From Dictyostelium discoideum (Eukaryota): a stretch of DNA of 64,000 nt. The stretch spans positions 4,928,001 through 4,992,000 of the forward strand of contig CM000151.3 in assembly GCA_000004695.1 (NCBI GenBank). The letters run 5' to 3'. The notes below the pieces were generated by a model. It was not told where the DNA came from. It made no database searches and saw only the letters and a list, made by a program, of their open reading frames with translations. The position numbers and the translations under genes are program-made. Of the stretch, positions 6,884 to 61,863 are shown in pieces; the first letter of the stretch is position 1; the number at the start of each line of letters is the position of its first letter.

Positions 6884-7743
6884 GAAAAAAAGGGACTAGT
6901 GAATTTAAAAACAAAAGTATACTAATTATAGTATTTTGGAAATTATTTTTTATTTTTATTTTTATTTTTTATTTTATTTTTTTTTTTTAGCAACTGCAAA
7001 ATGGTATTTATTATTTTTTGTAATATTTTAATTTCATTGTATTCCCAATTATTTTTTTTACTTGGTATCTAAATTAAATAGGGGGTGGTGGGTTTACTTT
7101 ATTTGGATTGATAGTATGGATTTAAAAAAAATTATAAAATAAAATATTGTTCTTTTTAATTTTTCCTTTTTTTTTTTTTTTTTTGGTGGTAAAATAATTA
7201 GAATTACAAAATGGTGGTTGGTGGTTCTTATATTTTATTAAAATATCGTAAAATTCTAATAATTTTAAAAAACTTGGGTAAATTAAGATTTAATTATTTT
7301 AAAAGAAAAATAGTAATTTAAATTACCAAATATCATATGTCAACTAATAATTACAACCAATAATTTGGAAAAATTATCAAAAAAAAAAAAATATAATAAA
7401 AGAAAAGAAAATAATAAGTTTATTATTTATACTAAAATAAATTAAATGAAATAAATTAAATGAAATAAAATGAAATAAAATAAAAATAAAAAAAAAATAA
7501 TAACAAAATTTTAGAAGATTTTTGAACGACAAGTTTCAAAACCTTGATCTCACCCAATTAAATCTATTTTTCATTATTGACAAGGCTATAATAATAATAA
7601 TAATTGTAAAAATTGAGACTTTAAAAATAAAAAAATAAAAAAAAAAAAGTGGTTGATTTAAAAAATCATAATCGAGAAAATATATTTGTTAACCAATATT
7701 AAAATTCCCTTAAATTTATTTGAATAATTCTTCATCTCTTTAT

Positions 7744-7821
7744 TTAAATGTGATTAATTCTACTTCAAAGACAAGTCTATAAAAAAATATATAAATGATT
7801 AATTCTACTTCAAAGACAGTC

Positions 7822-7860
<39 letters not shown>

Positions 7861-8447
7861 GAATGATTAAAATAGGGAATACTAACGTTGCATTTGGTGG
7901 AATAACACCACCAGCACCTCTAGCACCATATCCAAAATCTGGGCTAATGGTTAATTTTGAGGTTTCACCAACTTTCATTTTAGCAACACCTTCATCCCAA
8001 CCTTTGATGACTTGACTATAAAGTTTTAGAGAGGGAAAAAAAAAAAATTAGAAAATTATGATTGGGATAGAGTTTAAAAAAAAAAAAAAATTATAGAATT
8101 TGCATACCCAGCCCCAAGTTTAAAATTAAATGGTTGGCCTCTCTTTCTTGATGAATCAAAAACGGTACCATTAGTTAAAGTACCTGCATGCTTTATTAAT
8201 AATTATAGAATAATATATATATATTGTGAATTAGTTTTTTTTTTTTTTTATTTGTTTATTTGATAATAAAAAAAAAAAAAACTTACATGTACAGTTACAT
8301 TTGAACCAACTGGTGGAATATTACCTTTACCTTCTTTAATAATTGTGATTTCAACACCCTGATTTTTTTAAAAAAAAAAAAAATATATATATATTAGATT
8401 TTAATTCATTGATCAAAACGTTTTGTTGTTCAAACTCAACTCACCAT
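7744..8447 (-). CDS. FKBP12-type peptidyl-prolyl cis-trans isomerase (FK506-binding protein). Exon 1 is 8445..8447, the ATG only. Exon 2 is 8287..8358 ([24 protein letters not shown]). Exon 3 is 8108..8190 ([28 protein letters not shown]). Exon 4 runs from 8015 down to about 7873 ([46 protein letters not shown]). The 3' terminal exon is uncertain; duplicated FEVELI-coding mini-exon candidates lie at 7786-7815 and 7744-7780.
   Basis: The translation aligns along its whole length with human FKBP1A ([100 protein letters not shown]). Donors are GTGAGT, GTAAGT and GTATGC; acceptors are tcag, aaag and tatag. Confidence 0.75.
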
Positions 8448-8527
8448 TGTTTTATTTATCAAGTTTGAATTATTTTGTTATGGAAAAATAAAAAAAAAAA
8501 AAGTCAAAAAAAAAAAAAAAAAAAAGT

Positions 8528-8565
<38 letters not shown>

Positions 8566-8736
8566 AAAATTAAAAAAAATTAAAAAAAACTTTTTTTTTT
8601 TTTGGTAACAACATCAACCTGTGGCTGCAATAAATAATACCTCAAATTGAAATAAAATAATTGTATCTTCCACAACTTTTAAAAGAATTCCAATTTATAA
8701 ATCAAAAGGTGTTCAAGTTTTAATTAATGTTTTACC

Positions 8737-11014: not shown

Positions 11015-11460
11015 AAAAAAAAAAAAGAAAAAAAAAAAAAAAATTAATAAACACTTTTTTCCCTTTCTCATATATAAAAAAAAAAGAAAAAAAAAAAAAA
11101 AAAAACCTTTCAATCACATAGGGATACATTATTAAATTTTTTTTTAAATTCCTTTTTTTTAATTTTTAATTTTTTTTTATTATCACAAATATTTTCATCT
11201 TTTTCACCATTTGTTTTTTGGCAGGATAATTTTTTATATTTTTTTACTAATTGGGGTAGTTAAACAACCAATTGTTTTTTTTTTTTTTTTTTTTTGAAAT
11301 AATAAATAGAAGTTATGACATTATTTAATTAATTTTTAATAATCCATAACAAAATTAAATAACTATCTGCTGGTCTTTTTTGTATTTTTTTTCAACTTCG
11401 AATTAGGCTATAATGAATGGTAAAAGAAAACTGTCTACTGATCTTTTTTGTATTTTTTCA

Positions 11461-11710
11461 ACTTTGAAAATTTAGGTTGCATTTGGTGGAATGACACCAC
11501 CAGCACCTCTAGCACCATTACCATAATCTGGGCTAATGGTTAATTTTCAGGTTTCACCATTTTCATTTTAGCAACACCTTCATCCCAACCTTTGATGATT
11601 TGACTAAATTTTAGAAAAAAAAAAAAAAAAAAATTAGAAAATTATGGGAAAAAAAAAAAAAAAAAGATTAAAGAATTTGCATACCAGCTCCAAGTTTAAA
11701 ATTACTAATT
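11461..11710 (-). pseudogene. Degenerate partial copy of the FKBP12 gene segment (exon 4 plus part of intron 3).
   Basis: 11461-11595 aligns with 7873-8015. The sequence gttgcatttggtgg...accaccagcacctctagcacca...tctgggctaatggttaattt is shared. The intron segment gaatttgcatacc...aagtttaaaatta at 11676-11705 matches 8094-8130. The copy carries indels and stop codons. Confidence 0.6.
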
Positions 11711-11728
11711 TGGGTTAAAATAAAACAA

Positions 11729-17317: not shown

Positions 17318-20300
17318 ATGATGGAGTTGTCAACTGAAGACAATTCACAAACCAATAATAATAATAATAATAATAGTAATAATAGTAATACAAATAGTGA
17401 ACAAATTAAAGAACCAAATTGTAATAGTAATAATAGTAATAATAATAATAGTAATAATTTAAATAATTCAATAATATCGGACTTATCAACACCAGGAAAT
17501 AATATAATACAAGTTAAAATGGATGAAGAAAGTCAATCATCACAATCGATATCAGAATCATCAACGCCTACAATCATAGGAAATCAAAAGGATGAAGTAG
17601 TAACATCATCAAATAATTCATCACCATTAACTCAATCACAACAAACCAATACATTATCAGAATCAACTGAATTAAAAGTATCATCGCAAACAGCAACTAA
17701 AGAAACATCAGACTCTTCACCACCAACAGGTGAGGGTTCATCATTAACACCTCAAAATTCTGTTTCACCATTAACAGGATCAAGAGATATCGATTCACAA
17801 CATGATGGTGGTGGTAGTATTCATTCATCATCACCACCACCACCACTATCAACAACATCAAGTGAACCAAGTGAATCATCTTTACCACAAACTTTAACTT
17901 CATCAATTCCATCAATTCCAATACCAAATAATACTTCAACAACAACAACAACCACTACCACTACTACTACTAATACAACTACAACACCATTATCATCATC
18001 AACAACAATAACAAAACCACCATCATTATCATCAAGTGTTGAAAAACAATATCCACCACCAATTACAGGTAATCCAAGATTAAATTTATTAAATAATGGT
18101 GGTAGTGGTAATAGATCAACCAATGGATTGGACGTACATAAATATAGAACATTTATAGGATCTAAATTACAATCAACCAATGTAAAAGATGATCCTTTAG
18201 CAGAGGAAATGATCTATTTACCAAAGGATGATCTATCATTTTCAAAAGTTGAAGCATATCATCGTATCATTTCAACAGCTATGAGTTTACCACCTGGTAT
18301 ACCACCCGAATATTTCAATCCTTTTGAATTTAATCAACATGTTAAAACTTCAATCGATACCTTTAATGCACCACGTAAAACTATAACTAGAAATTATGAA
18401 AAATTTAAAAAGGATCAAGATCGTTTAATAATTATAAATAATTCACCATCAATATCACAACAACAACAACTTCAAAATGGTTTAATATCAGCAAATACTA
18501 GTTTTTATATAGGTAGTACAAGTGCTACTAGTATCAATGGTGGTAATAGTAATAATAATAGTTTTTTAGATTATTTTAATAATAGTAAAGAAAATAGTAG
18601 TGGTTTGAGTAATACAAATTTAAATTCAAATAGTATTTTAAATGATAAATATGAATGTGATATAGTTTATGAAAAGGAGTTATTAAATTCAAAATTAGCG
18701 ACAGTACAATCATCAACTGGTAGAAACAGTGGTGGAGTTATAGATGAGAAAGATTTACCACCAAGTTGGGCAGAGTCATCAGATGAATTACATTTTGAAT
18801 ATCAACAACCCATTACATCCGATATAGAGTTGGAGAATCAGGAACAAAGAAAACGTCAACGTCATCATGGTTTCTTTAAATATTATAAACCAGACTATAA
18901 TTGGGGATCAGGTACAGAGGTATCACTTTGTAATAGAACCATAGTTGATCCATGGAAAAAATCAAATTCAATCAGTGTATTATTGGAATTCAAAGGTTTA
19001 GTATTTCTATTGGGTGAACATGAACCATTCTATTGTCAAATGTTTTTATATGATTCTGTTAATAAATGTAGATTAAGTGAATCATTTCATTTTGATTTCA
19101 ATCCTGAAAGATTGAAATTATTAGTTGATAATGGTAATATTAAATCAAATTCAATTACAAATGATAAAAATAATAGCAATCCAGAATCTGATTCATCATC
19201 ATCCACATCTTCATCATCATCAGTGGCAGCAGCAAATACAAATCCTTCAACACCAGATTATTTAACACAATGTAGACATGTTTTAGTATCATTACCAGTG
19301 AAACAACAAAAGGATATTTGGATAGTTGTTAAAATTAATAAAGTTATGCAAGGTGATCCAGATGTAATCAAAGAACCTTATACCAAATTGGATGAGAAAG
19401 AAATTGGTAAATCTAAAGTAAAAGTTTCAACAACCATTCAAGATATTGGTAAAAGATTGGGTAGATTTCATCAACCATTCTCAATTACTACTTTACCATT
19501 AACAAATGAAGGTGGTTTTGTTAAACCTGGTACTGTGGAATGTGATCTCTATAAACAAGTTCCAAAGGATTTATCTGATCTTCAAGATTTAATCACTGAT
19601 ATTAAAGATCCTTCAAAGAAAAAGAAATTAAAAACTTTATTAGGTGCTTTCACTTGTGTAGTTCATAAAACTGAAGGTGAATTACCACCATATGGTCAAC
19701 GTTTAGATCCATCTTATAATTTTATTAAATCTTCTGAACCTTATAATAATGCAAATCAAATTGATTCTAATAAATCATATAATAATAATAATCAAAATAA
19801 TCAAAATAATAATAATAATAGTAATAGTACAAATACTTCATCAGATAATGTACCACAACAATCACCAGCAATTTTAATTACACCAGATTGTACACCACCA
19901 TTTAAATCAATTAATCCACAAGTTGCATTATCAATGTCATCATTAAATTCACTTACAACAACAACAACAACACCACCAACAAATAATAATAATACTACAA
20001 CAACAACAAATACAACAACAAATACAACAAATGAAAATAATCAACAACCAGATTTATCACCAACATTATCACCAAGAAGACAATTACAACATTCATCATC
20101 ATATTCAAATAGTATTAAACGTGTTAATACATTAGCAGCACTTAATCCAGTTATACCAGCAATTAGAGAGATTCAATGTTTTTCAAAGTATCCAGAATTA
20201 ATACCACATTATCAACAATTTAATAATCTTTATATTTATCCAGAAACTGTTTGTTTAAATAAAGCTCATGGTAGAAATATATCAATAAAGATTGAAATAC

Positions 20301-21090
20301 GAGAAGATGATTCAGTAGTTGGTGGTCAAGCATTGAAATTAATTTATGGTAAATCATCATGTCAAAGATTCCAATCGGTATTTCATACAGAAACTCATTA
20401 TCATAATAAGAATCCAATATTCTTTGATGAGATTAAAGCTAAGTTACCACCTATTTTACCATCGAAATTACATATACTATTCACATTTTATCATATAGTT
20501 TGTAAAGTTGGTAAAAGAGATGAAGTATCAGAGAATATCATTGGTTTCTCTGCATTGCCTCTATATAGAGAGAAGAAATTCGTTGATAATGGTCCACACT
20601 CATTACCATTGGCAATTGGTCCACCTAAAAGTGGTTATCTTGGTAGAATGACTGAAGGAGATTATGTACTCTTGGAGAATGGTAAAAGTTTATTCAAATT
20701 TGATCTAAAATTAAATTCAAGTCTTTTCCCTCAAAACACTCATTTAAACAAATTTTTATTACAATCAAAAGATGAAAAAGAATTAACCAATTGCTTAAAT
20801 CATTTCCATTTATTCGATCCATTAGAATCAATTAAATTCTTCCCTGTAATTATGAATCATTTACTTTATGTACTTTGTAATAGAGAGAGTACTGTTGGTT
20901 CAACTGCAATTAAAGCTTTATTGGTTTTACTCTCAAAAATTCAATCATACCTTGAAGATTCAAATATTCGTGTACCATTATTATCATCTTATATAACTCA
21001 TATTTTTGATAATCCACCTGATACAAAAATACCTGTTCATACTGCATTATGTACAAGATTAGTTTTATTTTTAATGAGAAAAAGAGTAAG

Positions 21091-21121
<31 letters not shown>

Positions 21122-24100
21122 TTATAATATTTATTAATATTATTATTATTATTATTATTATTATTTATTTTATTTAGTCAAATGATTTTAGTGATATTTC
21201 AAATTCATCAATATTTTCATTTTCATGGTTTATATTTGATTTAATAATTAAATCAATTGGATTATATAAATTAGATGGTAAAGTACCAATAAAGGATGGA
21301 GCAACATCACCAAGTTTACCATTTTTCGAAATTCATGATCCAGAATTTATAAAGTTTATACCAAAATTAGTATCATTTGGACTATCACATATTTTAAATT
21401 CAATTACAACAAATCAAGATTGTAGATTGGCATCTGATGCAAATAATAATTTAGCATTATTTATTAGGGATTTATTTGGTGTTTTCGATAGAGGTGTTGT
21501 TATAGATTTATTATTCACTTTTATAAATGATATTAATCAAGGTATTGGAAAGGATCCACAAAATGCAACAACTTTTCTTTATTATAAATTCGATTTTCTA
21601 AAGATCATTTGTGATTATGAACATTATATAAATCTAAATATACCAACACTCTATTCAATTAGTAGTATTCAAAATTTGTCAACTAAAATCAATGATACTC
21701 ATCCAATTTCGGGTATTTTGATTCGTGAGGTTTTGGAAATCATTTTCCATGGTTATCATTCAATTGAAGTTAGGAATGTGGCTTTTACAACATTGAGTAC
21801 CATTCTAACAAAACATGACTATGATCAACGTTATCAAACACTTGCAAAGAAAGAAAGAATTGCTTCAATTTATTTCCCTTTAATTTTAGAATTAATTGAT
21901 CATCAAGATAAATTCAATCATTGGTTTAGTATTGCAGATATCACTGAAAAACGTTTACTCATTTCCTCTCTATTATTTGTATTAAAGAATTTATCAAAAC
22001 CATTATTAAAACAATGGTTTCATAAAGAAGTACCACAAAGATTAAATATTTTATTCGAATTATTAGGTCAATTTGCAAATGCTTTTGAATATCAACAAAT
22101 TAAAAATCAACAACAAAATCAACAACAACAGCAACAACAAAATGGTGCTATTGGTGGTAGTGGTAGTGGTGGTAGTGGTGGTAATAGTATTAATCATTCT
22201 CAAGGTGATAGTGGTAATTATCCTTCACAATCAATTGAATCTGGTACAGGTATTCAAAATCAAAATAATAATAGTACTAGTAGTATTGGTACAATTTCCT
22301 CATCTGGTAGTTTTATACCAACTCCACCACCTCCAATGTCAATGATGGCACATAGTGGTAAGTTATCAAAAGATGTTTTCATGAAAAAGAATCAATCTTC
22401 ACCATTAAAAGATTCTTCTTCAAATTTATTAAATAGATCAGGTTCAAATTCTTCATTATCAATTAATACAAGTGGTGGTGGTAGTACTAATCAACAACAA
22501 CAACAAATTTCACCATCTGCTTCACAAGAAGTTATACCACCATCACCACCATCTACACCACCTGTTCCATCTACAAATTTACAACAACAGCAACAGCAAC
22601 AACAACAACAACAACAATCAAATATTACAACATCAACAGATTCAAATAATGGTGATGGTATTAATTTAATTCAAGCATTTGCACATGCAACAATTAAAGA
22701 AGCTACAAGTATTAATAGTAGTAGTTCAAGCCTTTCAATACCAAATGATCCAGCAGCAGCAGCAGGAGCAGTAATTGGTAATCGTAATAGAACATCAGTT
22801 AATGGTAGTACAAGTATGGGAACAAGTGCAGCAATTTCAGCAGCAGTTGTAGCAGCAGCAGCAGCATCAGGACCAAATAGAAATCGTCAAATTGGCACAA
22901 ATGAAGCTGTATTAGCATCTGAAGCAAATTTAATTATATTAGATTTCATAGAGGATTTAATTAAATATCAATATACATTACTTAAAGAGAATGATTCACC
23001 ATTATTTGAAAAGTTATTCCAATTATTTATAATTCTATTAAAGAAACGTCAATCACATCGTGTAACAAGTTGTTTATTTGCATCATTACGTTCATTCGTA
23101 TTCAAATTTAGAAATCATTTCTTTAAAGATCAACAAAACAATTATTGTAATCAATTATGTTGTGAAGTATTACGTTATTGTAATTTCCCATCAAAAGAGA
23201 TTAGAGCTGTTGCAACCGGTTTCTTATATTCAATGATTAAACATAATAATCAAGTGGTTGGTAATTTTGGTAGAATGAAAATTCAAGCCACAATTGCATT
23301 GAGTAATCTAGCCAATAGTGGTGTATTTAAAAATGATTTCAAAAATTTAGAAAGATCATTTTCAACCATTTCAAAATATTCAATTGAGGAGCGTATGTTG
23401 GAATCGTCCAATAATACAATCATTGGTTTGAATCTATTGGCAACCCTATCAAAGGATGAAATTCAAGAGGTGAAAAATAAATTTAGTATTCAAATTCAAA
23501 AGATGTCAAATAAACTTTCAAAGATTATTCGTGATACAGTTAGAGCAAACCTTTTGAAAGCAAATTCCGATCCTGAAACCATTCATGAACTTTATAGTGA
23601 GATTGCATCTGGTTATTCCGATACACCAATCATTAGAATCGATTGGTTGAATATTTTAGCAAATAAACATATCGAAGAGGAGAATTTCTTTGAGGCAGCA
23701 GTTTGTAAACTTAGAATAGCTCTATTGATCATTGAGTATTTAGAACAAAATAAATTAATACCATGTAAATTGGATTTAACATTGATCGATCAAATTTGTC
23801 CAGGAATTTCTGAACATGTAATTCAAGAGGATGATGGTGTTTTCACATCACCAATTTTCTCATTACATGGTTTAACCACAACGATTCTATTGGCAACTAA
23901 TCAATTCCGTATGGGTGATTATTTCGAATATTCAATTCTACTTTATAAATTCCTAATGCCACTCTATGAAAAGAATAGAGATTTCGCAAATCTTTCCGAT
24001 TGTCATAAACAAATCACCGATCTATACAAAGAGATCATCAAAGCCTATGAAAATAAATCACGTATGTTGGGTCGTTATTATAGAGTTGGTTTCTATGGTG

Positions 24101-25278
24101 AAGGATTTGAAGATTTGGATGGAAAAGAATTCATTTATAAAGAACCAAAACTCACTCATTTATTCGCACTCTCTGAACGTTTGAAAACTTTTTACACAAA
24201 GAAATTCCATCAAGAAGTTGTGGTTTTCCCTGACAGTGGAAAAATTGAACGTTCCAATTTGGATACTGGTAGACTTTATCTCCAAATCACTTCTTTGAAA
24301 CCATATTTTGATCCAAAGGATTTAGAATTATCACCAAGACCTGATTATTTCGAAAAACATACCCTTTTGAAAGATTTTGTTTTCATTACACCTTTTACAC
24401 TCACTGGTCGTACTCAAGGTTCAATCACTGAACAATTTCATCGTAAAACTATACTCACCATTGAAAATACTGCTCCAAATATGTTGAAACGTTATTTGGT
24501 AGCAAGTAAGAAAGAGATTGAAATTAGTCCAATCGAGAATTCAATTGAAACCATTCAAAAGAGAAATCAATTGTTATCCATTGAAATCAATCAAAATCCA
24601 CCATCAATTAAAACTTTACAAGGTGTTTTACAAGGTAGTGTTTTATTGCAAGTCAATGCTGGTGCCTTGGAGATTTGTCGTGGTTTCTTGGCAAATCAAA
24701 TGCGTGTTAATTGGCCCGCTCATCATATTGAAACTTTGGCTCAGGAATGTACAATCTTTTTAAAACATTGTAAACGTGCTTTGGATATCAATAAGAATAA
24801 GATTCAAATGAATCAAATCTCTTTTCATCAAGAATTGGAATTGGGTTATGCTAAACTTTACTTTAAAATGGATCGTTATATTCGTGCTGAAATTAATAAT
24901 GAATCTGATGAAGAAGCTATCGATATGGATCAACAACCTGAAACTGTTCAATCTTCATATGGAGCCGAGGATGAATCTTCTCTAATCACTGATTTATCAT
25001 ATGATGATGATATCTCTATTAAAGAATCTTCACCAAATAATATTTTAGATAATTTATTACCAAATTTAAAAAAGAAATCAATGGATAATTTTTTAACAAT
25101 TAAAGAAGATAAACGTATTAAAAGAGGTTCTGCTGAATTTGATAATAATTCAACAACATTAAATAATAATAATAGTAATAATAATAATAATAATAATTCC
25201 AATAGTAATAATAATTCACCATTTCCAATCCAAACTCCAAGGTCAATGAATGATAAAAAATTTTCAAATAATCATTAA
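17318..25278 (+). CDS. DOCK-family (dedicator of cytokinesis) Rho-GEF, ~2622 aa. join(17318..21085,21178..25278). It has a DHR-1/C2-like region and a DHR-2 catalytic region.
   Basis: DOCK signature blocks are present: FYRVGFYGEGFEDLDGKEFIYKEPKLTHLFALSERL, and TPIIRIDWLNILANKHIEEENFFEAAVCKLRIALLIIEYL (compare DOCK180 ...EAAQC..H.AAL.AEYL). The two long ORFs are joined in frame by a 92-nt intron (donor AGA|GTAAGT, acceptor tttag|TCA). Confidence 0.8.
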
Positions 25279-30209: not shown

Positions 30210-32180
30210 TTAAATTAATTTTATAAATTTATTAAAAAAATTGGAATCCATGATATTAATTAGGTTTGAGTATTTATTAATGTAAATTGTTTCTAATGAA
30301 GATGTAAAGTAATCATCAAATGATGATGAAAAGTCTTGTTTGAATATGATTGAATGAATTGTTAATTCTTTTAAAGAGGATGGTAATGAACCAATTTGAA
30401 AATCATAGATATAATTAGAACCTAATTCTAAATTTGTTATACTATTTGGAAGTGTTCCAACTTGAAATATTTGATTGAATTTACTACCACTAAATTTTAA
30501 AACTTTTAAAGATGGTGGTAAAACATCCTTTTCAATTGGTTGATTAAAATGATCACCAAATGTTAAATTGATAATTGACTTTGGTAATACACCTTTTTCA
30601 ATTGGTTGATTAAAGAATTTACCAAATGATAATGTAGTTAAATTACTTGGTAAAACATCTTTATTAATTGATTGATTAAAATAATCACCAAATGATAAAA
30701 TTTCAATTGAATTTGGTAAAACTCCTTTCTCTATATTATTATTGAAATAATAACTAAATGTTAATTTTTTAATTGTATTTGGTAAAACACCTTTTTCAAT
30801 TGGATGGTTAAAATTATAATAAAATGATAATGATATTACACCAACTGGTAGACTACCTTTTAGTAATGGCCTTTCATTCCATTTAATTGAAATCTCTTTG
30901 TCAACATTGTTTTTTGGTAACCCAAATGGAAAATCGGTAAACTTACCTACATTATAAATCAATGATGTAAATGTTGATGGTAATGTAACATCATCAATTT
31001 TTTTTTTAAATCCAATACCCAATTCCAATGATTTTAAATTTACTAAATTTAAAAAATAACCACTTGGTATACTTTGATTAAATGTACCACCAAATATTAA
31101 ATATTCCAATTTTGATGGGAATTGAAAATGGTCTAAACATTTATTAAACCTGTAACCTAATTCTAAATGTTCTAAATTTATTGGGAATTCACAATCTTCT
31201 AATGGTTGATTAAAATCATTACCTAATATTAATTTTTTAAGATTTATCAAATCACTGAAATCAAATTTATTATTAAAATCTAAACCAAATTCAATTGATA
31301 CTAAACTAATTGGTAAAAAATTTATTTTAATTAATCTATTGAACTCATCATTAAATTTAATTGATGTAATATAATTTGGTAATATTAAATTTGAATTATA
31401 TAAATTATTTAAATTTCTTTCAAAAATAAATTTTAAACCATTAATTCTCCAATTAAATTTAATATTACTACCAAAATATTTTGATGGTAAATTTAATGAT
31501 GTTAATGATTTTGGTAAAAAATTATTAATGTCACTAATTGGTTGACTGAATTCATTACCAAATTTCAATGATTTAATATTTGATGATAGCCAATTACCTT
31601 TTAAAGATTGATTGAATGAATCACCAAAATCAATAGATATAACACTTGAGGGTAAAAAACCAACTTCTAATGGGTTTTTGTTATAAACTCCATTAAATTG
31701 AATTGATGTTATACTTGGTGGTAATATTCCAGCTTTTAAAGGCCCACAATCATCATCAATTATGATAGTTTTAACACTATTAGGTATAACATTATTTTTA
31801 TCAAATTTCATTTTTCTAAAACAAATAGTATCTACTGATGTTGGTATTGTATTTTCATTAAATAATGAAAGTTTTAATTTAAAAAGTGATAAATATTTAA
31901 TACCATGTGGTAGTGGTAGTAGTTCAATAGTATCATTTTCATTATCTGTTCCAAAGATAAGAACATGATTAAAATATTCTTTATACTTATAATTCAAAAT
32001 ATCTTCAATTTTTTTGGTTCTATATGGTTGACTATTAAAGTGTTTATTATATAATCTTAAATGATATAAAATTTCATTCCTTATTACAAGATTCCTCCAA
32101 ATTTTTAAAAAAATATCATTATTCTTTAATGATATAAATTGTTCATTTTCAATTTCAAATTTTCTTTTTTTGTTGTTCAT
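30210..32180 (-). CDS. FNIP-repeat-containing protein, 656 aa. Its N-terminal module is shared with the 25641 gene (FLKIWRNLVIRNEILYHLRLYNKHF).
   Basis: Many FNQ(P/S)I(E)KGVLP repeats of ~22 aa. A long intact ORF. Confidence 0.75.
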   Translation of the reverse strand: MNNKKRKFEIENEQFISLKNNDIFLKIWRNLVIRNEILYHLRLYNKHFNSQPYRTKKIEDILNYKYKEYFNHVLIFGTDNENDTIELLPLPHGIKYLSLFKLKLSLFNENTIPTSVDTICFRKMKFDKNNVIPNSVKTIIIDDDCGPLKAGILPPSITSIQFNGVYNKNPLEVGFLPSSVISIDFGDSFNQSLKGNWLSSNIKSLKFGNEFSQPISDINNFLPKSLTSLNLPSKYFGSNIKFNWRINGLKFIFERNLNNLYNSNLILPNYITSIKFNDEFNRLIKINFLPISLVSIEFGLDFNNKFDFSDLINLKKLILGNDFNQPLEDCEFPINLEHLELGYRFNKCLDHFQFPSKLEYLIFGGTFNQSIPSGYFLNLVNLKSLELGIGFKKKIDDVTLPSTFTSLIYNVGKFTDFPFGLPKNNVDKEISIKWNERPLLKGSLPVGVISLSFYYNFNHPIEKGVLPNTIKKLTFSYYFNNNIEKGVLPNSIEILSFGDYFNQSINKDVLPSNLTTLSFGKFFNQPIEKGVLPKSIINLTFGDHFNQPIEKDVLPPSLKVLKFSGSKFNQIFQVGTLPNSITNLELGSNYIYDFQIGSLPSSLKELTIHSIIFKQDFSSSFDDYFTSSLETIYINKYSNLINIMDSNFFNKFIKLI

Positions 32181-32810: not shown

Positions 32811-34554
32811 TTATTCTTGAGGAATACCACTTATACTTGAAGATAAGCCTAAAGATTCATCTAAACCTAAACCTTCTTCAATTGATTTTACTAAATTATT
32901 AATATATTTTTTAGTTACTCTAACTCTATTTTTCATATCTTCAGCATTTATTAAAGCAACATTAATATAAACAGATTCAGAGAGTTCTTCAGTGATACCT
33001 TCAGCATTTGCTTGTTGATATTCGAAAAATGTTTTACCAGCTACATTATCAGATAAATAGAAACCGAAAACATAAGTATACTTTAGAATACGTCTACATT
33101 CAATTAACAATTCAATTGCCTCTTGAAGGAAATCTGGATTTAAATTTGCCAATTCTCTGTATTGATTCATTTTATCTTCCATTTCTTCATCTCTCATTTT
33201 GATTGCATGTTTCATTAACATATCATGATTGAAATAACGAGTGAAATAGTGAAGAAAACGATCAGATTCCTGTTTGACAATGGCAGCACTTTCATCTGCT
33301 TTCTTACCTTCAGAGACTTCATACTTGTTACAACTATAGAAACCACCAGTATGTTGACCATGAGTTTTCCAATCTCCACGACACATCCAACACCATTCAC
33401 CACCACAACCACCTTGTTCCTTACGACAAATGATATGATTGCAACCCATTATACGTTCGGTTGGCATACCACAATGATAACAAGGTTTACAAGTTGATTT
33501 TATAAGTTTTAAACTCTCTTGATCATTGCTATTCTTTGATTTCCATTCAACAAGTTGAGCACAACTAACTGGATTATGTTTTTCACTTCCACAAGAGAAA
33601 CAAAATCTAGTACCACAATGACATTCAACCACATCATTGGGTCTACCAACACCACTATATCTAATAGCATTTCCACATGATGGATTTGGACAAAACTCTA
33701 AATTCTTATTATTACCAACGAAATCCTTGCAAATGAAATACCAATAACGAGAGTAGTCACGATCCGATGCTAAATCTTTCCAATTCTCATAGGTTAACTT
33801 TCCATTACATAATGGATAAATACATTTACTATGAATGATTTCACCACCACAAGTTTGCATCTCTTGATGAAGATAACTCTTCCAACATCCCTTACAATAT
33901 GGACCATGGCCACATGATAAACTATAGAAACTATCATCATTTGATTGATTTTCAAAACAAACAATACAAACTGAATTGGTTGGATACTTTGTAATTTGTT
34001 CATTCGCCAAGATAATACCTGCATTCTTACAAACCCTTTCTGGATCTTCAAAATATTCACCACTTAAAACTCTATCCAAATCCCATTTAAAATATTGTAA
34101 CAATAGTATTGCATTACCTGAACTTTGGTCGATTTGATCGGATAAAACATTTGCATTATCTTTAATTTGATCTTCTAATCCTTTCTTTTCAAGTATTGTA
34201 AATAATGGTTCATCATCTTCTTCACCTTGATTCTCTTCATCTTCTAAAAACCAATCATTTGGATCATAATCACCTATATCAATATCTGATGCTGTTTCAC
34301 TCATATAACTTGATGTATCATCATTTGAAATATCTAAATTCTTATTTACAAAACTAATTGAATTTAAATATTTTATCATTTTTTCATCAGTTTCACCAGT
34401 TAAATCTCTTGATGATCTACGTAGAGTTTGTTGAACAATTGATGATCTTCTTAAAATTGATGAAAATGATCCTCTTCTTTGTGATTTTCTCATTGGTGAT
34501 GGTGTATTAAATCCATTTGGTTTATATGTTTTAATTGATTCTGAACTTGATTCC

Positions 34555-34556
<2 letters not shown>
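32811..34556 (-). CDS. RBR-type E3 ubiquitin ligase, Ariadne family (RING1-IBR-RING2), 581 aa.
   Basis: RING1 is CIVCFE...LSCGHGPYCKGCW. IBR is CPNPSCGNAI...CHCGTRFCFSCGSEKHNPVSC. RING2 is CKPCYHCGMPTERIMGCNHIICRKEQGGCGGEWCWMC. An Ariadne-like C-terminal domain follows. Confidence 0.8.
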
Positions 34557-39850: not shown

Positions 39851-42800
39851 TTAATAATTAATTGGTGGTGTAATTGTTGGAATTGGTTCATTTGTGTTTA
39901 TGCTCCATTCTTTTTTAAATTTTTTGATGGTTTCGGACCATTGGGTTTCTTTTTGAGTTTTTGTGAGGTTGTTTTTAATTGAGAATTGGTTAAAGTTTGA
40001 TAACCTTCTTGAATATTCCAATCTTATTAGCTTGTGCCATTTTGATTTTAATATATCATAATCTAGTGTTGTGTTGTTTATTTGGTTGTTCCAATTGTCA
40101 ATTGATTGAGTTATATTGATGTCAAATAATGATTTGCATAACCATATCCATATTTGGTGAATAACTAATGAGATTATGTTCCAATATGCATGTGTTCTGA
40201 CTAGATCAAGATTTGTGTTTATATAATTCCAGTTGAACCTGTATTTTTTATATTGTGCGTTTTCTGCAAAATGAAAATTAATATTGATAGTTGGATCTGG
40301 TTTAAATGCTTTGTTGTTTGTTTGTGGTTTATAAATGAGTGTGTATAATTTTGTTGTTTGGTTTTTTGTTAGTGACCAGTTTTTGTTTCCATTGCAATTT
40401 TTATATATAAAATATTTTAATTTGTCGTGGTTAATGAAGTTGATTGTGTGCTGACAATTGAAAAACAAATGACCATAGGGATCATTATTCATTTCATTGT
40501 TGCAAATGGGGCAAACTTTGTTGTGTAGATGATTAATCGGAAGACATCTAGCATGGAATCTTTGCATTGTATCTCGGCCTTTTGGATCTTTTAATTTTTG
40601 AATTTTGACAAAAAGTTGGTCGTATGTGTATTTCCATAATAGTTGTATTGATTGTTGGTGCGAAGTAAGAAGTAGATCTGAATATTTCTTGCCAATATAG
40701 TCTTTTGATTTGCATTGGTGATTGTTTAGTATTGTCGAGTAGATTTCTTTGAGTGTTGGTGGTAGTGAAATATTATTTGTGTTTAATGTTTGAGAGGGTT
40801 GGTTTTTTGTTAATATTGGTTGTAGGATTTGAACTTTATCTTTTAGATGTCCAATTTGAGTTGCATAGTTTTCCCATTCTTTTTTTATTTTTATAAGGTA
40901 TGGAGAAGAGATTGATTTGTTGATGATTTGATCCATCCAACTTATCATGTATATTGAATTGTTTGCAGATTTATGCATTTGTAAAAATCTGTTGTATATC
41001 CAAATCTTTTGAGCAACTTGTCGTAATTGGATATTCCACATACCCCAACCTCCTTCTTTTAATGGTTTTAATGATCTATCATAACACATCAAAGGTATTT
41101 TTGCACGTGAATGGATGGTTGATGTGTTGTTTTCAATGGAATTGGTATCGAGAGTTGGTGATTCAGAATTTGCGGGAGAATTCATAAACCATGAGATTAA
41201 TTTATTAATTTGAATTTCTTCATCTTTTTTGGTTATTGGAATTCTTTTTGATTGTGGAATGTTGTTTATTATGTGTTTATCAGTGATTTTGTGGGGGTTG
41301 ATTTCTATTATTGCACTTTTGTCAAAATTTAAAGATGATGATGTTGAAGCGCAGAAATTATCGAAATGTTTGATTGATTGTTGTTGTTGTTCGTAGTTGA
41401 TGTTGTATGTTGTAGAGTCGTCTGCAAATTGGGTAAATTTGATTTTAATTTGTGGATTGGGTGAAATTGGTAATCCAATTATTGAATTGTCTGCATTTAT
41501 TGTTCTTGCTAATATTTCAATTACAATTACAAATAAAGTGGCTGAGATTGGGTCACCTTGTTTTACACCTCTTTTAATATCGAATTTTCTGGTCGTTTTA
41601 CCATTAATTGAAATTTTTGCTTGTGAGTCAGATAATAGCTTGTGGATTAAATTTATTAATTTTATTGGTATACCAATATGAATTAATGTTCTTTTAATGC
41701 TATCGTGAGAGATAGAATCAAATGCTTTAAAGAAGTCAAATAGTGTGATGATACCAGGGAGGTTTTTAGATTTGAGGTAATTGATTAATTCATTGATGTT
41801 GATGATGTTGTCTATGATGAATCTGTGGGGTACGAAACCAGTTTGGTTGTTGTTGATGATGAAAGGAAGTATTCTCAGAAGACGTGCATTGATTACTTTT
41901 GAGAGGATCTTGTAATCAGTGTTTAGAAGTGTAATGGGACGACGATTTGATATGAGTAAGGGGTTGCCTTTCTTGTATATTGTGTGTATAAGACCTTCGG
42001 TGAATTCTGTTGTGATGTGGTGAGGATTTTCTAGTATATCGTTGAATAATGTAGTGAGAATTGGTTTAACTTGGTTTAAATGATTAATGTAGAATGCGTT
42101 TGTAACGCCATCTGGACCGGGTGATTTGTTGGGGTTACAGGTTTTAATTGCAGCTTCAACTTCATCTTGTATAAATGGTGAGTCTAAACCATTCCAATAT
42201 TCATTTTTTATGATGGGCCATGTGTTTAGCATGAGCTGGTGAGTAATTGGACAACATATTTGTAAGCTATATAGATTTGTGTAGAATTCAACAAACGCAT
42301 TTTCAATTTGGTCGGGGTCGGATGTAATTATGTTACCATATTGGATTGATTCAATTTTTGCATCTTTTGATCTTTTGTTTAGTATTGCTGATAGATACTT
42401 GCTAGGTATTTCTCCATTTATATGTTTTTTTAATATGTTTGTGTGGTTTTGATGTAATTTGTTTTTGTTACATATAATATTGTATTCAGCGATGCATTGT
42501 TCTTCAAGATGTTTGAATTTTGCTGCTTTTTCTAATAGTATTTGTTTTGCACGTTGAGTTTGTTTGTCTTTGTTATATTGATAGTTTTTTAGAGTTTTAA
42601 TAATTTTTGATTTTACTTTTGACCAGTTTGTAAATTGATTGATTGATGTGTTATTGTGATTAGTTATTAAATGATTGATAATATTGATTGCTTCATGGTC
42701 ATTTGCAGTACCAGGTGATAATATCCATCTTTTCTTATGTTTATTTATTTGAAAAGGTGAAGAAATTGTTGTTGATATTGGATTATGATCTGATAATGAA

Positions 42801-43477
42801 GATGGAATTTGGTGGACTTGTGTATATATATTTTCAGGGTCTATTCTATTGTATTGAGTATATATTCTATCTAATCTGTTGCCATGTGTATGAGTTGGAG
42901 TGTTTTTAAATTCACCTTGATCAATTAGATGGTGTTGGTATGTGTAGGATTGGATAATATCGTCTAATAGTGAATTGTCGTTGTGGATACAGTTGAAATC
43001 TCCTGCGATAATAGATACATGTTGGGATTGGTTTGGTATTGGGTTTGTTGAGTGGTTGTGGAGAAGTGTTTGTAGTGAAGTTGCATATGAATTCTTTTTG
43101 ATGGTATTATTTGATGCTGGTGCGTAAATTCCAAGAATACCAATTGGTAATTGATTTGGAAATATAACGTCTGCTAAAATAGCTCTACCATCAATTGTTG
43201 ATATGTGTTTGAGTTTGAGTGTGTTTGGGTTATGGTTAATGATGATTACACCATTTCCTCGTTTGGTGACAGAGATGATGTGATCGGGAAAATCATGTTT
43301 AAGTTGTAATGGTGATAAATTGAGTTCAGTGAGTATTGAGATTGTTGGACGAGGTGGAAGTTTTGATATAAGTAGTTGTAGTGTGTCAACAGCTTTTTGG
43401 TAGGAATTGTGTTGATTGTTTGGGTTTTCAGTGAATCCTCTACAATTCCATGTTATAAAGTTGATTTTTGAGCTCAT
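39851..43477 (-). CDS. TRE ORF2: apurinic-like endonuclease plus reverse transcriptase, 1208 aa.
   Basis: The N-terminal EN domain (ITWNCRGF..., ...AGDFNCIHND...) and the RT motifs (ITLFDFFKAFDSISHD, FADDSTTY) are present, followed by a C-terminal Cys-rich region. Its ATG overlaps the stop of the preceding ORF as ATGA. Confidence 0.85.
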   Translation of the reverse strand: MSSKINFITWNCRGFTENPNNQHNSYQKAVDTLQLLISKLPPRPTISILTELNLSPLQLKHDFPDHIISVTKRGNGVIIINHNPNTLKLKHISTIDGRAILADVIFPNQLPIGILGIYAPASNNTIKKNSYATSLQTLLHNHSTNPIPNQSQHVSIIAGDFNCIHNDNSLLDDIIQSYTYQHHLIDQGEFKNTPTHTHGNRLDRIYTQYNRIDPENIYTQVHQIPSSLSDHNPISTTISSPFQINKHKKRWILSPGTANDHEAINIINHLITNHNNTSINQFTNWSKVKSKIIKTLKNYQYNKDKQTQRAKQILLEKAAKFKHLEEQCIAEYNIICNKNKLHQNHTNILKKHINGEIPSKYLSAILNKRSKDAKIESIQYGNIITSDPDQIENAFVEFYTNLYSLQICCPITHQLMLNTWPIIKNEYWNGLDSPFIQDEVEAAIKTCNPNKSPGPDGVTNAFYINHLNQVKPILTTLFNDILENPHHITTEFTEGLIHTIYKKGNPLLISNRRPITLLNTDYKILSKVINARLLRILPFIINNNQTGFVPHRFIIDNIININELINYLKSKNLPGIITLFDFFKAFDSISHDSIKRTLIHIGIPIKLINLIHKLLSDSQAKISINGKTTRKFDIKRGVKQGDPISATLFVIVIEILARTINADNSIIGLPISPNPQIKIKFTQFADDSTTYNINYEQQQQSIKHFDNFCASTSSSLNFDKSAIIEINPHKITDKHIINNIPQSKRIPITKKDEEIQINKLISWFMNSPANSESPTLDTNSIENNTSTIHSRAKIPLMCYDRSLKPLKEGGWGMWNIQLRQVAQKIWIYNRFLQMHKSANNSIYMISWMDQIINKSISSPYLIKIKKEWENYATQIGHLKDKVQILQPILTKNQPSQTLNTNNISLPPTLKEIYSTILNNHQCKSKDYIGKKYSDLLLTSHQQSIQLLWKYTYDQLFVKIQKLKDPKGRDTMQRFHARCLPINHLHNKVCPICNNEMNNDPYGHLFFNCQHTINFINHDKLKYFIYKNCNGNKNWSLTKNQTTKLYTLIYKPQTNNKAFKPDPTININFHFAENAQYKKYRFNWNYINTNLDLVRTHAYWNIISLVIHQIWIWLCKSLFDINITQSIDNWNNQINNTTLDYDILKSKWHKLIRLEYSRRLSNFNQFSIKNNLTKTQKETQWSETIKKFKKEWSINTNEPIPTITPPINY

Positions 43478-44013
43478 ACCTTACTAGGTTTGGCAGCACC
43501 AGTATTGACTGGTTGTGTAGTCAGGGCATTGCTGCTTCTTCTTGTATTTATTGGATTTGGAGTTGGTGCACTTGGTTTGTTTGGTTGAGATTGTAGAGGT
43601 TTTTGTGGTACAATTGTTGGATCGGTTGGATTGCTCATTGATAATGAGTTTTTCCCGTTATTATTATTTGAAGAATCACTTTTGTGTGAAATTTCATTAT
43701 TGTTTTGGGATTGATTGTTAATATCAAGTGATTCATTTAGTATAGCTTTTGAACCACTATTTTGAAGTGAGTTTTTATTGCGATTGGAATTTGCAATTTC
43801 GTTGATTGGTGGGGTGTTAATGTTGTTTTTTGGTGGTTGATTGTTTTTGTTCATGTTTGGGTTTGTGATGGCATTTTTTATAGTTGTTGCCATATCTGCA
43901 TTTTTTGCATGTTGAATTTTGTGTTTAGTGACACTACGTGTTGCAGCTTTGATATATCTTGTGATACCAGATGGTTGTTCGATCTTTTGATCAACAATGT
44001 TGTGTGTGATCAA
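43474..44013 (-). CDS. TRE middle ORF, 179 aa. A basic, Asn/Pro-rich protein.
   Basis: It overlaps the ORF1 end by 23 nt and the ORF2 start by 4 nt. The same arrangement is conserved in the fragment copies at 54054..54374 and 54366..54698. Confidence 0.6.
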   Translation of the reverse strand: MITHNIVDQKIEQPSGITRYIKAATRSVTKHKIQHAKNADMATTIKNAITNPNMNKNNQPPKNNINTPPINEIANSNRNKNSLQNSGSKAILNESLDINNQSQNNNEISHKSDSSNNNNGKNSLSMSNPTDPTIVPQKPLQSQPNKPSAPTPNPINTRRSSNALTTQPVNTGAAKPSKV

Positions 44014-44680
44014 TTAGATGATATGTTATAATGTAGCTTTTAAACGCAACAGCATATGAGTATGTGACAGTAAATGATTCAATTGATGTACAACTGGTGA
44101 ATTTAGTGAGGTTGTTTGTAATTGCATCGTTTGCATGTTTGGGTGAGTACGTTTTAATGAATGTTTTAATGATTGCATAATCATTTGATGATATATCGAA
44201 TCTATAGTTGAGTTTGTCGATATTTAGTGCAAGTTGGTTTTGAAGGTTGATTATTGAAGTTAATTTATCAACGTTGCAATTTACGAAGGCAGTTGCACCA
44301 ATTATTTTGAATGCTGATGGCGACAGTATATCTTCGAAGAGTTTGTGAATGTTTTTGTGAATTTGTTGAATTCTTGTGTCATCTTTTGAGGTTAATTCTT
44401 CACGGATGTGTGGTTGATTAAAGTAACACTTAATGTTGATGGTGTTATTGTTTTTTTCTAAGAAAGAGAGTGGTCTTGTGATTGATGGAGGTGCAATGAT
44501 ATCTAATTGATTATCAAGTCCTTTGTTTAGTGAGAGTTGGTTTGTTGGGGTTTGTTTTTTAGGTGTGTCGATTTTTACACTTTTGTTTTTTGTTGTTGAG
44601 GTTGTGGAGGTATTATTTGTATTTGTTGTGTTGTTATCTGTATGATTTAACTGTAATTCAGTTGAGTGATCATCAGCCAT
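43991..44680 (-). CDS. TRE ORF1, 229 aa.
   Basis: The start MADDHSTELQLNH... is repeated, near-identical, at 53780..54076 (plus strand) and in the inverted copy. Confidence 0.7.
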   Translation of the reverse strand: MADDHSTELQLNHTDNNTTNTNNTSTTSTTKNKSVKIDTPKKQTPTNQLSLNKGLDNQLDIIAPPSITRPLSFLEKNNNTINIKCYFNQPHIREELTSKDDTRIQQIHKNIHKLFEDILSPSAFKIIGATAFVNCNVDKLTSIINLQNQLALNIDKLNYRFDISSNDYAIIKTFIKTYSPKHANDAITNNLTKFTSCTSIESFTVTYSYAVAFKSYIITYHLIDHTQHC

Positions 44681-44877
44681 TGTTGAAAAGTATATAGGAC
44701 GATAGCCCTTGCTTTAATGAGCAAAAATAGGGTAAAATTAAGAGGAATGAATGTGGCGGTGAAGATATAACAGTGATTTATTTATTATATGTATAAATTC
44801 TCGTTTATTTCTTTGTTTTTTCGGTTTTTTGTTTTTTCAATCGAAGTTCGAATTTAGTGAAATTTCTAAAAAAGAAA

Positions 44878-44950
44878 TGTCAAGTCAGAGGATCGAACTC
44901 TGGACCTTAGGATTATGAGACCTACGCTCTACCAACTGAGCCAACCTGAC
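44878..44950 (-). tRNA. tRNA-Met (anticodon CAU), 73 nt.
   Basis: The reverse complement GTCAGGTTGGCTCAGTTGGTAGAGCGTAGGTCTCATAATCCTAAGGTCCAGAGTTCGATCCTCTGACTTGACA folds as a cloverleaf. The acceptor is GTCAGGT/ACTTGAC with one G-U pair. The anticodon loop is CUCAUAA, and GTTCGATCC forms the T-arm. Confidence 0.85.
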
Positions 44951-44956
44951 ATGTTG

Positions 44957-45348
44957 ATATTTTTTGTAATAAAGTTACTCTATAAAATTAATAGATATTA
45001 AATATGCATATTACATTACTAATTATAGTTGACACACATTTAAATAATATAATAATAATAATAATAATAATAATACTGTCAACTCATTATGAATAATATA
45101 AATACTAAAGAATAATTTTATAAACAATATTGAATATTATAAATATAAATTAATATTAAATAAAGATAACAAAGTATTATTCAATTATATAATTATTAAT
45201 TATATATATTTATAAAGCTAACAAGCTTTATTACATTTGGCGACATCGTCTTTCAAAAAAAAAAAAAAAAAAAAATATACTATAAATATAAAGTTATCAA
45301 ATTATTCAATCAATTAAAATTTTACATTAGATTAAATTTAATTTAATA

Positions 45349-45437
<89 letters not shown>

Positions 45438-53254: not shown

Positions 53255-53328
53255 GCCTTAGTAGCTCAGTTGGTACGAGCGTGAGACTGAAGATCTTAAG
53301 GTCGCTGGTTCGATCCCGGCCTGAGGCA
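53255..53328 (+). tRNA. tRNA-Phe (anticodon GAA), 74 nt.
   Basis: GCCTTAGTAGCTCAGTTGGTACGAGCGTGAGACTGAAGATCTTAAGGTCGCTGGTTCGATCCCGGCCTGAGGCA. The anticodon loop is CUGAAGA. It is highly similar to canonical eukaryotic tRNA-Phe. Confidence 0.85.
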
Positions 53329-55789: not shown

Positions 55790-59279
<3,490 letters not shown>

Positions 59280-61790: not shown

Positions 61791-61863
61791 CGCCCAAAGG
61801 GGGGCTCGAACCCCCGACCACAAGGTTAAAAGCCTTGCGCTCTACCGACTGAGCTATCTGGGC
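61791..61863 (-). tRNA. tRNA-Lys (anticodon UUU), 73 nt.
   Basis: The reverse complement GCCCAGATAGCTCAGTCGGTAGAGCGCAAGGCTTTTAACCTTGTGGTCGGGGGTTCGAGCCCCCCTTTGGGCG. The anticodon loop is CUUUUAA. T-arm GGGGG TTCGAGC CCCCC. Confidence 0.8.

What the first reader, a model, noticed from the sequence alone, without database searches (positions are those of the whole stretch)
8281..8447. FKBP12 gene whose first coding exon is only the start codon
On the minus strand the sequence reads acaATG|GTGAGTtgag... and, 87 nt later, ...aaaaaaatcag|GGTGTTGAAATC. Splicing gives [14 protein letters not shown]..., which matches human FKBP1A ([13 protein letters not shown]...) residue for residue. A 3-nt ATG-only coding exon is the only way to supply the initiator. 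It makes a neat test case for annotation pipelines that drop micro first exons.
Basis: partly seen in the sequence, partly recalled or inferred. Interest (0 to 1): 0.5.

Follow-up and report, generated by a model that had tools for sequence, protein, structure and literature searches.

The report
Known FKBP12 gene with start-codon intron

Summary
On the minus strand, ATG (8447-8445) is followed directly by GTGAGT. An 86-nt AT-rich intron (8444-8359) ends in TCAG, and the next exon starts GGT GTT GAA. Joining five exons gives a 107-aa protein that is one FKBP_C domain (Pfam E=1e-36) and is 54% identical to human FKBP1A, colinear from Met1.

This protein is residue-for-residue identical to the public D. 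discoideum AX4 entry XP_643718.1 / EAL69894.1 / UniProt Q554J3 (FKBP1_DICDI). An exhaustive search over GT/GC-AG introns finds only one exon set that reproduces it, and that set uses the ATG-only coding exon. The unspliced RNA hits stop codons in every relevant frame.

The same layout, ATG|GT, a 79-89 nt intron, then AG|GG(T/C)GT, occurs in six other annotated dictyostelid loci. In Polysphondylium violaceum it is the only intron. It is absent from a coral and a green-alga FKBP12 gene.

Introns right after the start codon are a described class, enriched in short, conserved, lysine-rich proteins (Nielsen & Wernersson 2006). The real first exon also contains the 5' UTR, so only its coding part is 3 nt. 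I found no RNA evidence with these tools. Verdict: correct, ordinary, already known.

The parts
8445..8447 (-). Start codon; the whole coding part of exon 1 (context aaaacaATG|gtgagt). The exon extends upstream into an unmapped 5' UTR.
   Evidence: It is the first ATG after the upstream oligo-T tract, with no ATG in the 60 nt before it. It is the start of the only exon set that reproduces XP_643718.1.
8359..8444 (-). Intron 1, 86 nt, phase 0, between codons 1 and 2. Donor GTGAGT, acceptor TCAG, GC 18.6%.
   Evidence: An equivalent 79-89 nt intron sits at the same position in L001-L005 and L008.
8393..8397 (-). CTAAT, a branch-point-like motif about 35 nt upstream of the 3' splice site (inferred, not tested).
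   Evidence: Read. CTAAT/CTAAC is the only internal motif aligned across the D. discoideum-group, D. firmibasis and C. fasciculata copies of intron 1 (not P. violaceum).
8370..8383 (-). T14 polypyrimidine tract of intron 1.
8287..8358 (-). Coding exon 2 (72 nt): [24 protein letters not shown].
8191..8286 (-). Intron 2 (96 nt, GTAAGT...AAAG, phase 0).
8108..8190 (-). Coding exon 3 (83 nt): [28 protein letters not shown]. It carries the window-specific His-Ala where all other dictyostelids have Tyr-Val.
8016..8107 (-). Intron 3 (92 nt, GTATGC...ATAG, phase 2).
7887..8015 (-). Coding exon 4 (129 nt).
7777..7886 (-). Intron 4 (110 nt, GTTAGT...ATAG, phase 2). It contains a frameshifted tandem copy (7820-7796) of the start of the last exon, with its own AG.
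7740..7776 (-). Coding exon 5 (37 nt, ...[11 protein letters not shown], stop TAA at 7742-7740).
8448..8600 (-). About 150-nt intergenic stretch dominated by oligo-T runs on the gene strand. It must hold the promoter and the 5' UTR part of exon 1. The transcription start is not mapped.
   Evidence: In L001 the upstream gene is called up to 152 nt before the ATG. Placement of the transcription start is inference.

Best explanation
This is the single-domain FKBP12 gene (fkbp1, UniProt FKBP1_DICDI) of Dictyostelium discoideum. It lies on the minus strand at 8447-7740 and has five coding exons and four short AT-rich GT-AG introns. The first intron is a start-codon intron: a phase-0 intron lying exactly between codon 1 (ATG) and codon 2 (GGT).

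Inferred mechanism: transcription starts a few tens of bases upstream, after the oligo-T tract, so exon 1 is the 5' UTR plus AUG. U1 pairs with AUG|GUGAGU. The 86-nt intron is removed using a CTAAT-like branch site, a T14 tract and UCAG. The ribosome then initiates on AAAACAAUGG and reads M-G-V-E... into a normal 107-aa FKBP-type prolyl isomerase.

The intron position is old. It is shared by all dictyostelid FKBP12 genes examined, but not by a coral or a green-alga FKBP12 gene. The site ATG|GG resembles a proto-splice site, and the protein fits the published class of start-codon-intron proteins (short, conserved, lysine-rich).

Shown here: the sequence anatomy, the uniqueness of the model, identity to the public protein and comparative conservation. 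Inferred: the transcription start, the branch point and actual splicing in vivo.
For: - Anatomy and translation.
- FKBP_C domain at E=1.1e-36, covering residues 16-104.
- Solved FKBP12 structures align from residue 1 or 2 to 105. Identity to human FKBP1A is 54% from Met1.
- Exact match to EAL69894.1 / XP_643718.1 / Q554J3 'FK506-binding protein 1', D. discoideum AX4.
- A single GT/GC-AG exon set reproduces that protein, and it needs the 3-nt coding exon.
- Stops block every unspliced reading.
- A second D. discoideum assembly has its gene range starting on the same ATG.
- The ATG-only coding exon plus a 79-89 nt intron is conserved in D. cf. discoideum, a diverged 'D. discoideum' assembly, D. 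firmibasis, Polysphondylium violaceum (its only intron) and Cavenderia fasciculata.
- It is absent in Orbicella (ATGGGAGTTGAAAAG is contiguous) and in Prototheca (exon 1 is 81 nt).
- Start-codon introns are a described class, enriched in short, Lys-rich, conserved proteins (PMC1626468).
- Rapamycin acts through FKBP12 in Dictyostelium, and an fkbp12 knockout exists (PMC6637605).
Against: - I obtained no transcript evidence. A scan of metagenome/metatranscriptome contigs for the spliced junction found nothing, and no transcript-derived copy of the protein was on record.
- I did not see the AX4 CDS coordinates themselves. I saw only the product, and coordinates for the sister assembly.
- The comparative gene models are predictions. 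Some may have been guided by homology to AX4, so they are not fully independent. The underlying genomic signals, ATG|GT ... AG|GG(T/C)GT with stops in between, are independent.
Confidence: 0.95

Rival explanations
1. The true initiator lies in another exon further upstream, giving a longer N-terminus, and the ATG at 8447 is coincidental.
For: Nothing positive. The transcription start has not been mapped with these tools.
Against: - The upstream gene ends about 150 nt before the ATG, and that stretch is almost all oligo-T with no ATG in the last 60 nt.
- All dictyostelid orthologues are 107-109 aa and begin MGV.
- Met1 aligns with Met1 of human FKBP1A.
- ATGGTGAGT is expected only 0.22 times in the whole window.
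Confidence: 0.02
2. Translation starts inside the downstream exons: at an internal Met, at a non-AUG codon in exon 2, or from an mRNA that begins within exon 2. The ATG-only exon would then be unnecessary.
For: The only in-frame ATG downstream is Met66 (KMK) in exon 4.
Against: - Starting at Met66 would remove two thirds of the FKBP_C domain, which Pfam matches at residues 16-104.
- Exon 2 contains no in-frame ATG, and TAA lies three codons upstream of it.
- The ATG|GT donor is conserved at the same distance in seven loci.
Confidence: 0.01
3. The intron is real but is kept for a function. It might boost expression from its cap-proximal position, or allow regulated retention that yields only MVS*. 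In that case it would be more than a neutral relic.
For: Its position is conserved across all the dictyostelid lineages sampled while other introns come and go. It is the only intron left in P. violaceum. Start-codon intron positions are unusually conserved between human and fly (PMC1626468).
Against: - The intron sequence is not conserved beyond close relatives, apart from splice signals and a CTAAY motif.
- No Rfam family matches in it.
- Preferential survival of the 5'-most intron is also expected from 3'-biased, reverse-transcript-mediated intron loss, without any selection (established model, not tested here).
Confidence: 0.15

Closest known systems
D. discoideum fkbp1 / FKBP1_DICDI (UniProt Q554J3; XP_643718.1; EAL69894.1)
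   Same: The spliced product of the window is identical over all 107 residues. This is that gene.
   Different: Nothing at the protein level. A second D. discoideum assembly (KAM9945447.1) differs by His25Tyr and Ala26Val.
Start-codon introns (phase-0 intron between codons 1 and 2; Nielsen & Wernersson 2006, PMC1626468)
   Same: Phase 0, immediately after ATG, and the first intron of the CDS. The protein is short (107 aa), Lys-rich (9 of 107 residues, my count from the translation) and highly conserved (54% identity to human). Codon 2 starts with G, which gives a proto-splice-like ATG|G.
   Different: [quoted passage not shown] The protein here is not a ribosomal protein, which is the most enriched group in that class.
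Human FKBP1A (FKBP12)
   Same: Single FKBP_C domain of the same length, colinear from Met1 and 54% identical. Most ligand-pocket residues are kept: Phe36, Asp37, Arg42, Phe46, Val55, Ile56, Trp59, Tyr82 and Phe99 (alignment; pocket residue list from my own knowledge).
   Different: I did not examine the human gene structure here. A coral and a green-alga FKBP12 gene have no start-codon intron. The window sequence has His at the position of human Tyr26, Gln at Glu54 and Ala at His87.

Membership tests
FKBP12-type peptidyl-prolyl isomerase (Pfam PF00254 FKBP_C) | Significant match to the FKBP_C profile above the curated cut-off. | tested here: met
   125.4 bits against a 21.1 cut-off, E=1.1e-36, residues 16-104 on profile positions 5-94 of 94.
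FKBP12-type peptidyl-prolyl isomerase (Pfam PF00254 FKBP_C) | Single-domain protein of about 108 aa, colinear with solved FKBP12 structures. | tested here: met
   107 aa. It aligns 1-105 to residues 1-106 of FKBP1A chains, E about 6e-34, and shows 54% identity with one gap.
FKBP12-type peptidyl-prolyl isomerase (Pfam PF00254 FKBP_C) | Conserved FK506/rapamycin pocket residues (human Y26, F36, D37, R42, F46, E54, V55, I56, W59, Y82, H87, I90, I91, F99; list from my own knowledge). | tested here: inconclusive
   F36, D37, R42, F46, V55, I56, W59, Y82, I91 and F99 are identical. Y26 is His in this window but Tyr in every other dictyostelid. E54 is Gln, H87 is Ala and I90 is Val. Binding was not tested. 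The literature reports that rapamycin acts via FKBP12 in Dictyostelium.
FKBP12-type peptidyl-prolyl isomerase (Pfam PF00254 FKBP_C) | Prolyl isomerase activity and drug binding. | not testable with these tools
   Needs biochemistry.
Start-codon intron class (Nielsen & Wernersson 2006) | Phase-0 spliceosomal intron exactly between codon 1 (ATG) and codon 2. | tested here: met
   ATG|GTGAGT...TCAG|GGT. This is the unique exon solution.
Start-codon intron class (Nielsen & Wernersson 2006) | Host protein is short, lysine-rich and evolutionarily conserved, and has no signal peptide. | tested here: met
   107 aa, 9 Lys (my count from the translation), 54% identity to human. The absence of a signal peptide is judged only by eye, from the polar N-terminus [13 protein letters not shown]; no predictor was run.
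Start-codon intron class (Nielsen & Wernersson 2006) | The intron is actually removed from the mRNA. | not testable with these tools
   No transcript data were reachable. The junction scan of metagenome contigs was empty.
Canonical U2-type GT-AG intron | GT donor matching GTRAGT, AG acceptor, pyrimidine tract and a branch-like motif. AT content is higher than in the flanking exons. | tested here: met
   GTGAGT, TCAG, T14 at 8383-8370 and CTAAT at 8397-8393. Intron GC is 18.6%; the exon-bearing stretch 7800-8199 is about 29-32% GC.

The most novel reading that the evidence does not exclude
The start-codon intron of FKBP12 may have been held in place by selection since the dictyostelid ancestor. 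It is present in all seven loci from the D. discoideum-group, D. firmibasis, Polysphondylium violaceum and Cavenderia lineages, always 79-89 nt long, and it is the sole surviving intron in P. violaceum. A cap-proximal intron directly after AUG may be needed for full expression of this small, abundant protein. Dictyostelium would then be a tractable system for testing what start-codon introns do.
Probability: 0.15. Interest if true: 0.3.

Novelty: already known. Interest (0 to 1): 0.08.

Why it matters
It matters little beyond bookkeeping. The check confirms that the public FKBP12 model for D. discoideum is the only one the sequence allows. It also shows that the ATG-only coding exon is an ancestral dictyostelid feature rather than an annotation artefact. 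The locus can serve as a regression test for gene finders, but every public annotation examined already passes it. The general phenomenon was described in 2006 for other eukaryotes, and this case extends it to Amoebozoa.

Tried and rejected
- Exact look-up of the AX4 protein's encoding contig returned nothing. I used the sister assembly instead.
- I scanned metagenome/metatranscriptome contigs for the spliced junction ATGGGTGTTGAAATCACAATTATTAAAGA as a stand-in for cDNA evidence. There were 0 hits.
- Literature searches for Dictyostelium-specific statements on introns after the start codon gave 0 useful hits. One 1994 paper on the RMLC gene matched 'immediately after the ATG' in the index, but the passage is not in the text that is held. 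The genome paper is not held.
- Two crude scans of the window for further start-codon introns gave no other convincing case, so I obtained no local frequency estimate.
- I looked for something functional inside intron 1. Rfam found only three tRNAs in the whole window. The alignment of the six intron-1 sequences compared (L008 not included) shows only splice signals and a CTAAY motif.
- I considered gene conversion from the nearby pseudogene as the source of the window-specific His-Ala. The pseudogene lacks that part of exon 3 and has GGA, not GGG, at the third site, so I rejected this.

Full report
**Observation.** Read on the minus strand, the window shows ...gataaataaaacaATG|gtgagttgag... 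with ATG at 8447-8445. Eighty-six bases later it shows ...tttttttttttttt aaaaaaa tcag|GGTGTTGAAATC, with exon 2 starting at 8358. It is 18.6% G+C, against about 29-32% in the exon-bearing stretch 7800-8199. It carries a GTGAGT donor, a CTAAT motif 35 nt from the acceptor, a T14 tract and a TCAG acceptor. The 9-mer ATGGTGAGT occurs three times in the window against 0.22 expected from shuffles.

**Gene model.** Five coding segments give a 324-nt CDS and a 107-aa protein:

| Exon | Coordinates (minus strand) |
|---|---|
| 1 | 8447-8445 |
| 2 | 8358-8287 |
| 3 | 8190-8108 |
| 4 | 8015-7887 |
| 5 | 7776-7740 |

The protein is [107 protein letters not shown]. The four introns are 86, 96, 92 and 110 nt long, all GT-AG and all at most 20% G+C.

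The protein is one FKBP_C domain (E=1.1e-36). It matches solved FKBP12 structures over residues 1 or 2 to 105. It is 54% identical to human FKBP1A, colinear from Met1 with one single-residue gap. 'Residue for residue' is therefore too strong, but the N-terminal register M-G-V is right.

**Is the ATG-only coding exon necessary?**

- Reading the exon-2 frame upstream through the intron gives ...F F F F * K N Q | G V E, with no ATG between the stop and GGT.
- The unspliced ATG frame reads M V S *.
- Exon 2 has no in-frame ATG. The next Met is residue 66, inside the domain.
- An exhaustive recursive search over all GT/GC...AG combinations in the gene range finds exactly one exon set that reproduces the protein. 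That set starts with the 3-nt segment.

**Is it already known?** Yes. The spliced product is present, residue for residue, in public databases. It appears as EAL69894.1 / XP_643718.1 'FKBP-type peptidylprolyl cis-trans isomerase [Dictyostelium discoideum AX4]' and as UniProt Q554J3 'FK506-binding protein 1, FKBP1_DICDI', on an 8.48-Mb contig. This also identifies the window as D. discoideum.

A second annotated D. discoideum assembly (GCA_054883475.1, locus L001) has a gene range that begins exactly on the same ATGGTGAGT and ends on the same TAA. The literature reports that rapamycin acts through FKBP12 in Dictyostelium and uses an fkbp12 knockout strain (PMC6637605). I infer, but did not check, that the knockout targets this locus.

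**Comparative evidence.** I fetched the encoding loci of six further dictyostelid FKBP12 proteins and solved their exon structures in the same way. Every one starts with a 3-nt ATG segment followed by GT.

| Locus | Intron 1 length |
|---|---|
| D. discoideum strain 2 (L001) | 85 nt |
| D. cf. discoideum (L002) | 84 nt |
| Diverged 'D. discoideum' assembly (L008) | 79 nt |
| D. firmibasis (L005) | 89 nt |
| Polysphondylium violaceum (L003) | 84 nt, the only intron in the gene |
| Cavenderia fasciculata (L004) | 87 nt |

In each locus exon 2 opens AG|GG(T/C) GT(N), and the unspliced readings are closed by stops. The other introns vary in number from 0 to 5.

The intron sequence is alignable only among close relatives. 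Beyond them, only the splice signals and a CTAAY motif line up. No Rfam family matches there. Outside Dictyostelia, the coral Orbicella gene reads ATGGGAGTTGAAAAG without interruption, and Prototheca has an 81-nt first coding exon. The position therefore looks dictyostelid-wide but not pan-eukaryotic.

One caveat applies. These are predicted models, possibly informed by homology to AX4. The genomic signals they rest on are nevertheless independent observations.

**How it works (inferred).** The physical first exon is the 5' UTR plus AUG. The upstream gene is called to within about 150 nt of the ATG, and that spacer is almost pure oligo-T on the gene strand. Exon 1 is therefore short, perhaps 25-100 nt, but it is not a 3-nt micro-exon for the spliceosome. 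'ATG-only exon' describes the CDS, not the transcript. After splicing, the initiator sits in an A-rich context (AAAACAAUGG).

Phase-0 introns between codons 1 and 2 are a documented, over-represented class in vertebrates, arthropods, fungi and plants. They are enriched in short, lysine-rich, conserved proteins. One proposed explanation is that ATG|G resembles a proto-splice site (PMC1626468). FKBP12 fits that profile: 107 aa, 9 Lys by my count from the translation, 54% identity to human, and codon 2 GGT.

**What is missing.** I could not reach any RNA-level evidence. The exact-protein look-up shows no transcript-derived copies. A scan of metagenome/metatranscriptome contigs for the spliced junction was empty. 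I did not view the AX4 CDS coordinates themselves.

**Verdict.** The feature is ordinary and already in the databases. All seven public annotations examined capture the ATG-only coding exon, so it is a weak stress test for annotation pipelines. The only mildly new point is that the start-codon intron is conserved across the dictyostelids examined and is the last intron standing in P. violaceum. That pattern is compatible with selection for a cap-proximal intron. It is equally compatible with 3'-biased intron loss.

**Side observations.**

1. The window encodes His25-Ala26 (CAT GCA) where the sister D. discoideum assembly and every other dictyostelid have Tyr-Val (TAT GTN). The His aligns with human Tyr26, a ligand-pocket residue.
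2. A 45-nt tandem duplication places a frameshifted copy of the last exon's acceptor and its first 25 nt inside intron 4.
3. A decayed FKBP12 pseudogene fragment lies 3 kb upstream at 11451-11712. A diverged assembly has an inverted second copy next to fkbp1.
4. A tRNA-Met gene at 44.9 kb is bracketed by a non-LTR and an LTR retroelement ORF.

Noticed in passing
window 8190, 8186 and 8113 (minus strand; fkbp1 exon 3): The window (identical to the AX4 reference protein) reads CAT GCA ... GGG, giving His25-Ala26. A second D. discoideum assembly reads TAT GTA ... GGT, and all six other dictyostelid orthologues encode Tyr-Val. The His aligns with human FKBP12 Tyr26, a ligand-pocket residue. This could be a lab-strain mutation, natural variation or a reference error. 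There are 3 substitutions in this 83-nt exon, against 25 substitutions across the 6.7 kb compared.
   Followed up: partly
window 7742-7786 and 7787-7831 (minus-strand gene; intron 4 / last exon): A 45-nt tandem duplication copies the 3' splice site and the first 25 nt of the last exon into intron 4. The upstream copy has a 1-nt deletion, so using its AG (7822-7821) would give a truncated ...NATLSLK* protein that lacks the last beta-strand. The duplication is also present in the second D. discoideum assembly. It may be a decoy or alternative acceptor.
   Followed up: partly
window 11451-11712, minus strand: An FKBP12 pseudogene fragment lies 3 kb upstream of fkbp1 in the same orientation. It keeps a recognisable copy of intron 3 (gtatgcaaattc...tttag), so it arose as a DNA-level duplicate. 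It has in-frame stops and a frameshift, and it lacks exons 1-2.
   Followed up: partly
L008 2921-3572 (and a degenerate third copy at L008 130-415): In a diverged assembly labelled D. discoideum (about 86-88% DNA identity to the window), fkbp1 is followed by an inverted second FKBP12 copy (P0018, 70% identical). Its annotated C-terminus (TAKWYLLFFIK) looks like a mis-predicted last exon. The locus has a history of local duplication.
   Followed up: partly
window intron 4 (7777-7886) versus L002, L008 and L005: The phase-2 intron in the Thr codon of ...PPNAT|L... (GTTAGT donor) is present in D. discoideum AX4, in L001 and in D. firmibasis. It is absent from D. cf. discoideum (L002) and from the diverged assembly L008. 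This implies recent intron loss, or parallel gain, among close relatives.
   Followed up: no
window 39851-49723: tRNA-Met (44877-44951, minus strand) is bracketed by two retroelement ORFs. One is non-LTR, with endonuclease and reverse transcriptase domains (39851-43477, minus strand). The other is LTR-type, with protease, RT, RNase H and integrase domains (45572-49723, plus strand). This is the usual Dictyostelium pattern of retroelements targeted to tRNA genes. Further tRNAs lie at 53255-53328 (Phe) and 61790-61864 (Lys).
   Followed up: partly
window 17318-25278, plus strand: Two long ORFs carry DOCK-C2 and DHR-2 lobes A, B and C. They are presumably exons of one DOCK-family GEF gene. Other ORFs carry FNIP repeats (30210-32180), RBR/Ariadne domains (32811-34556) and a protein kinase domain (55790-58924).
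   Followed up: no
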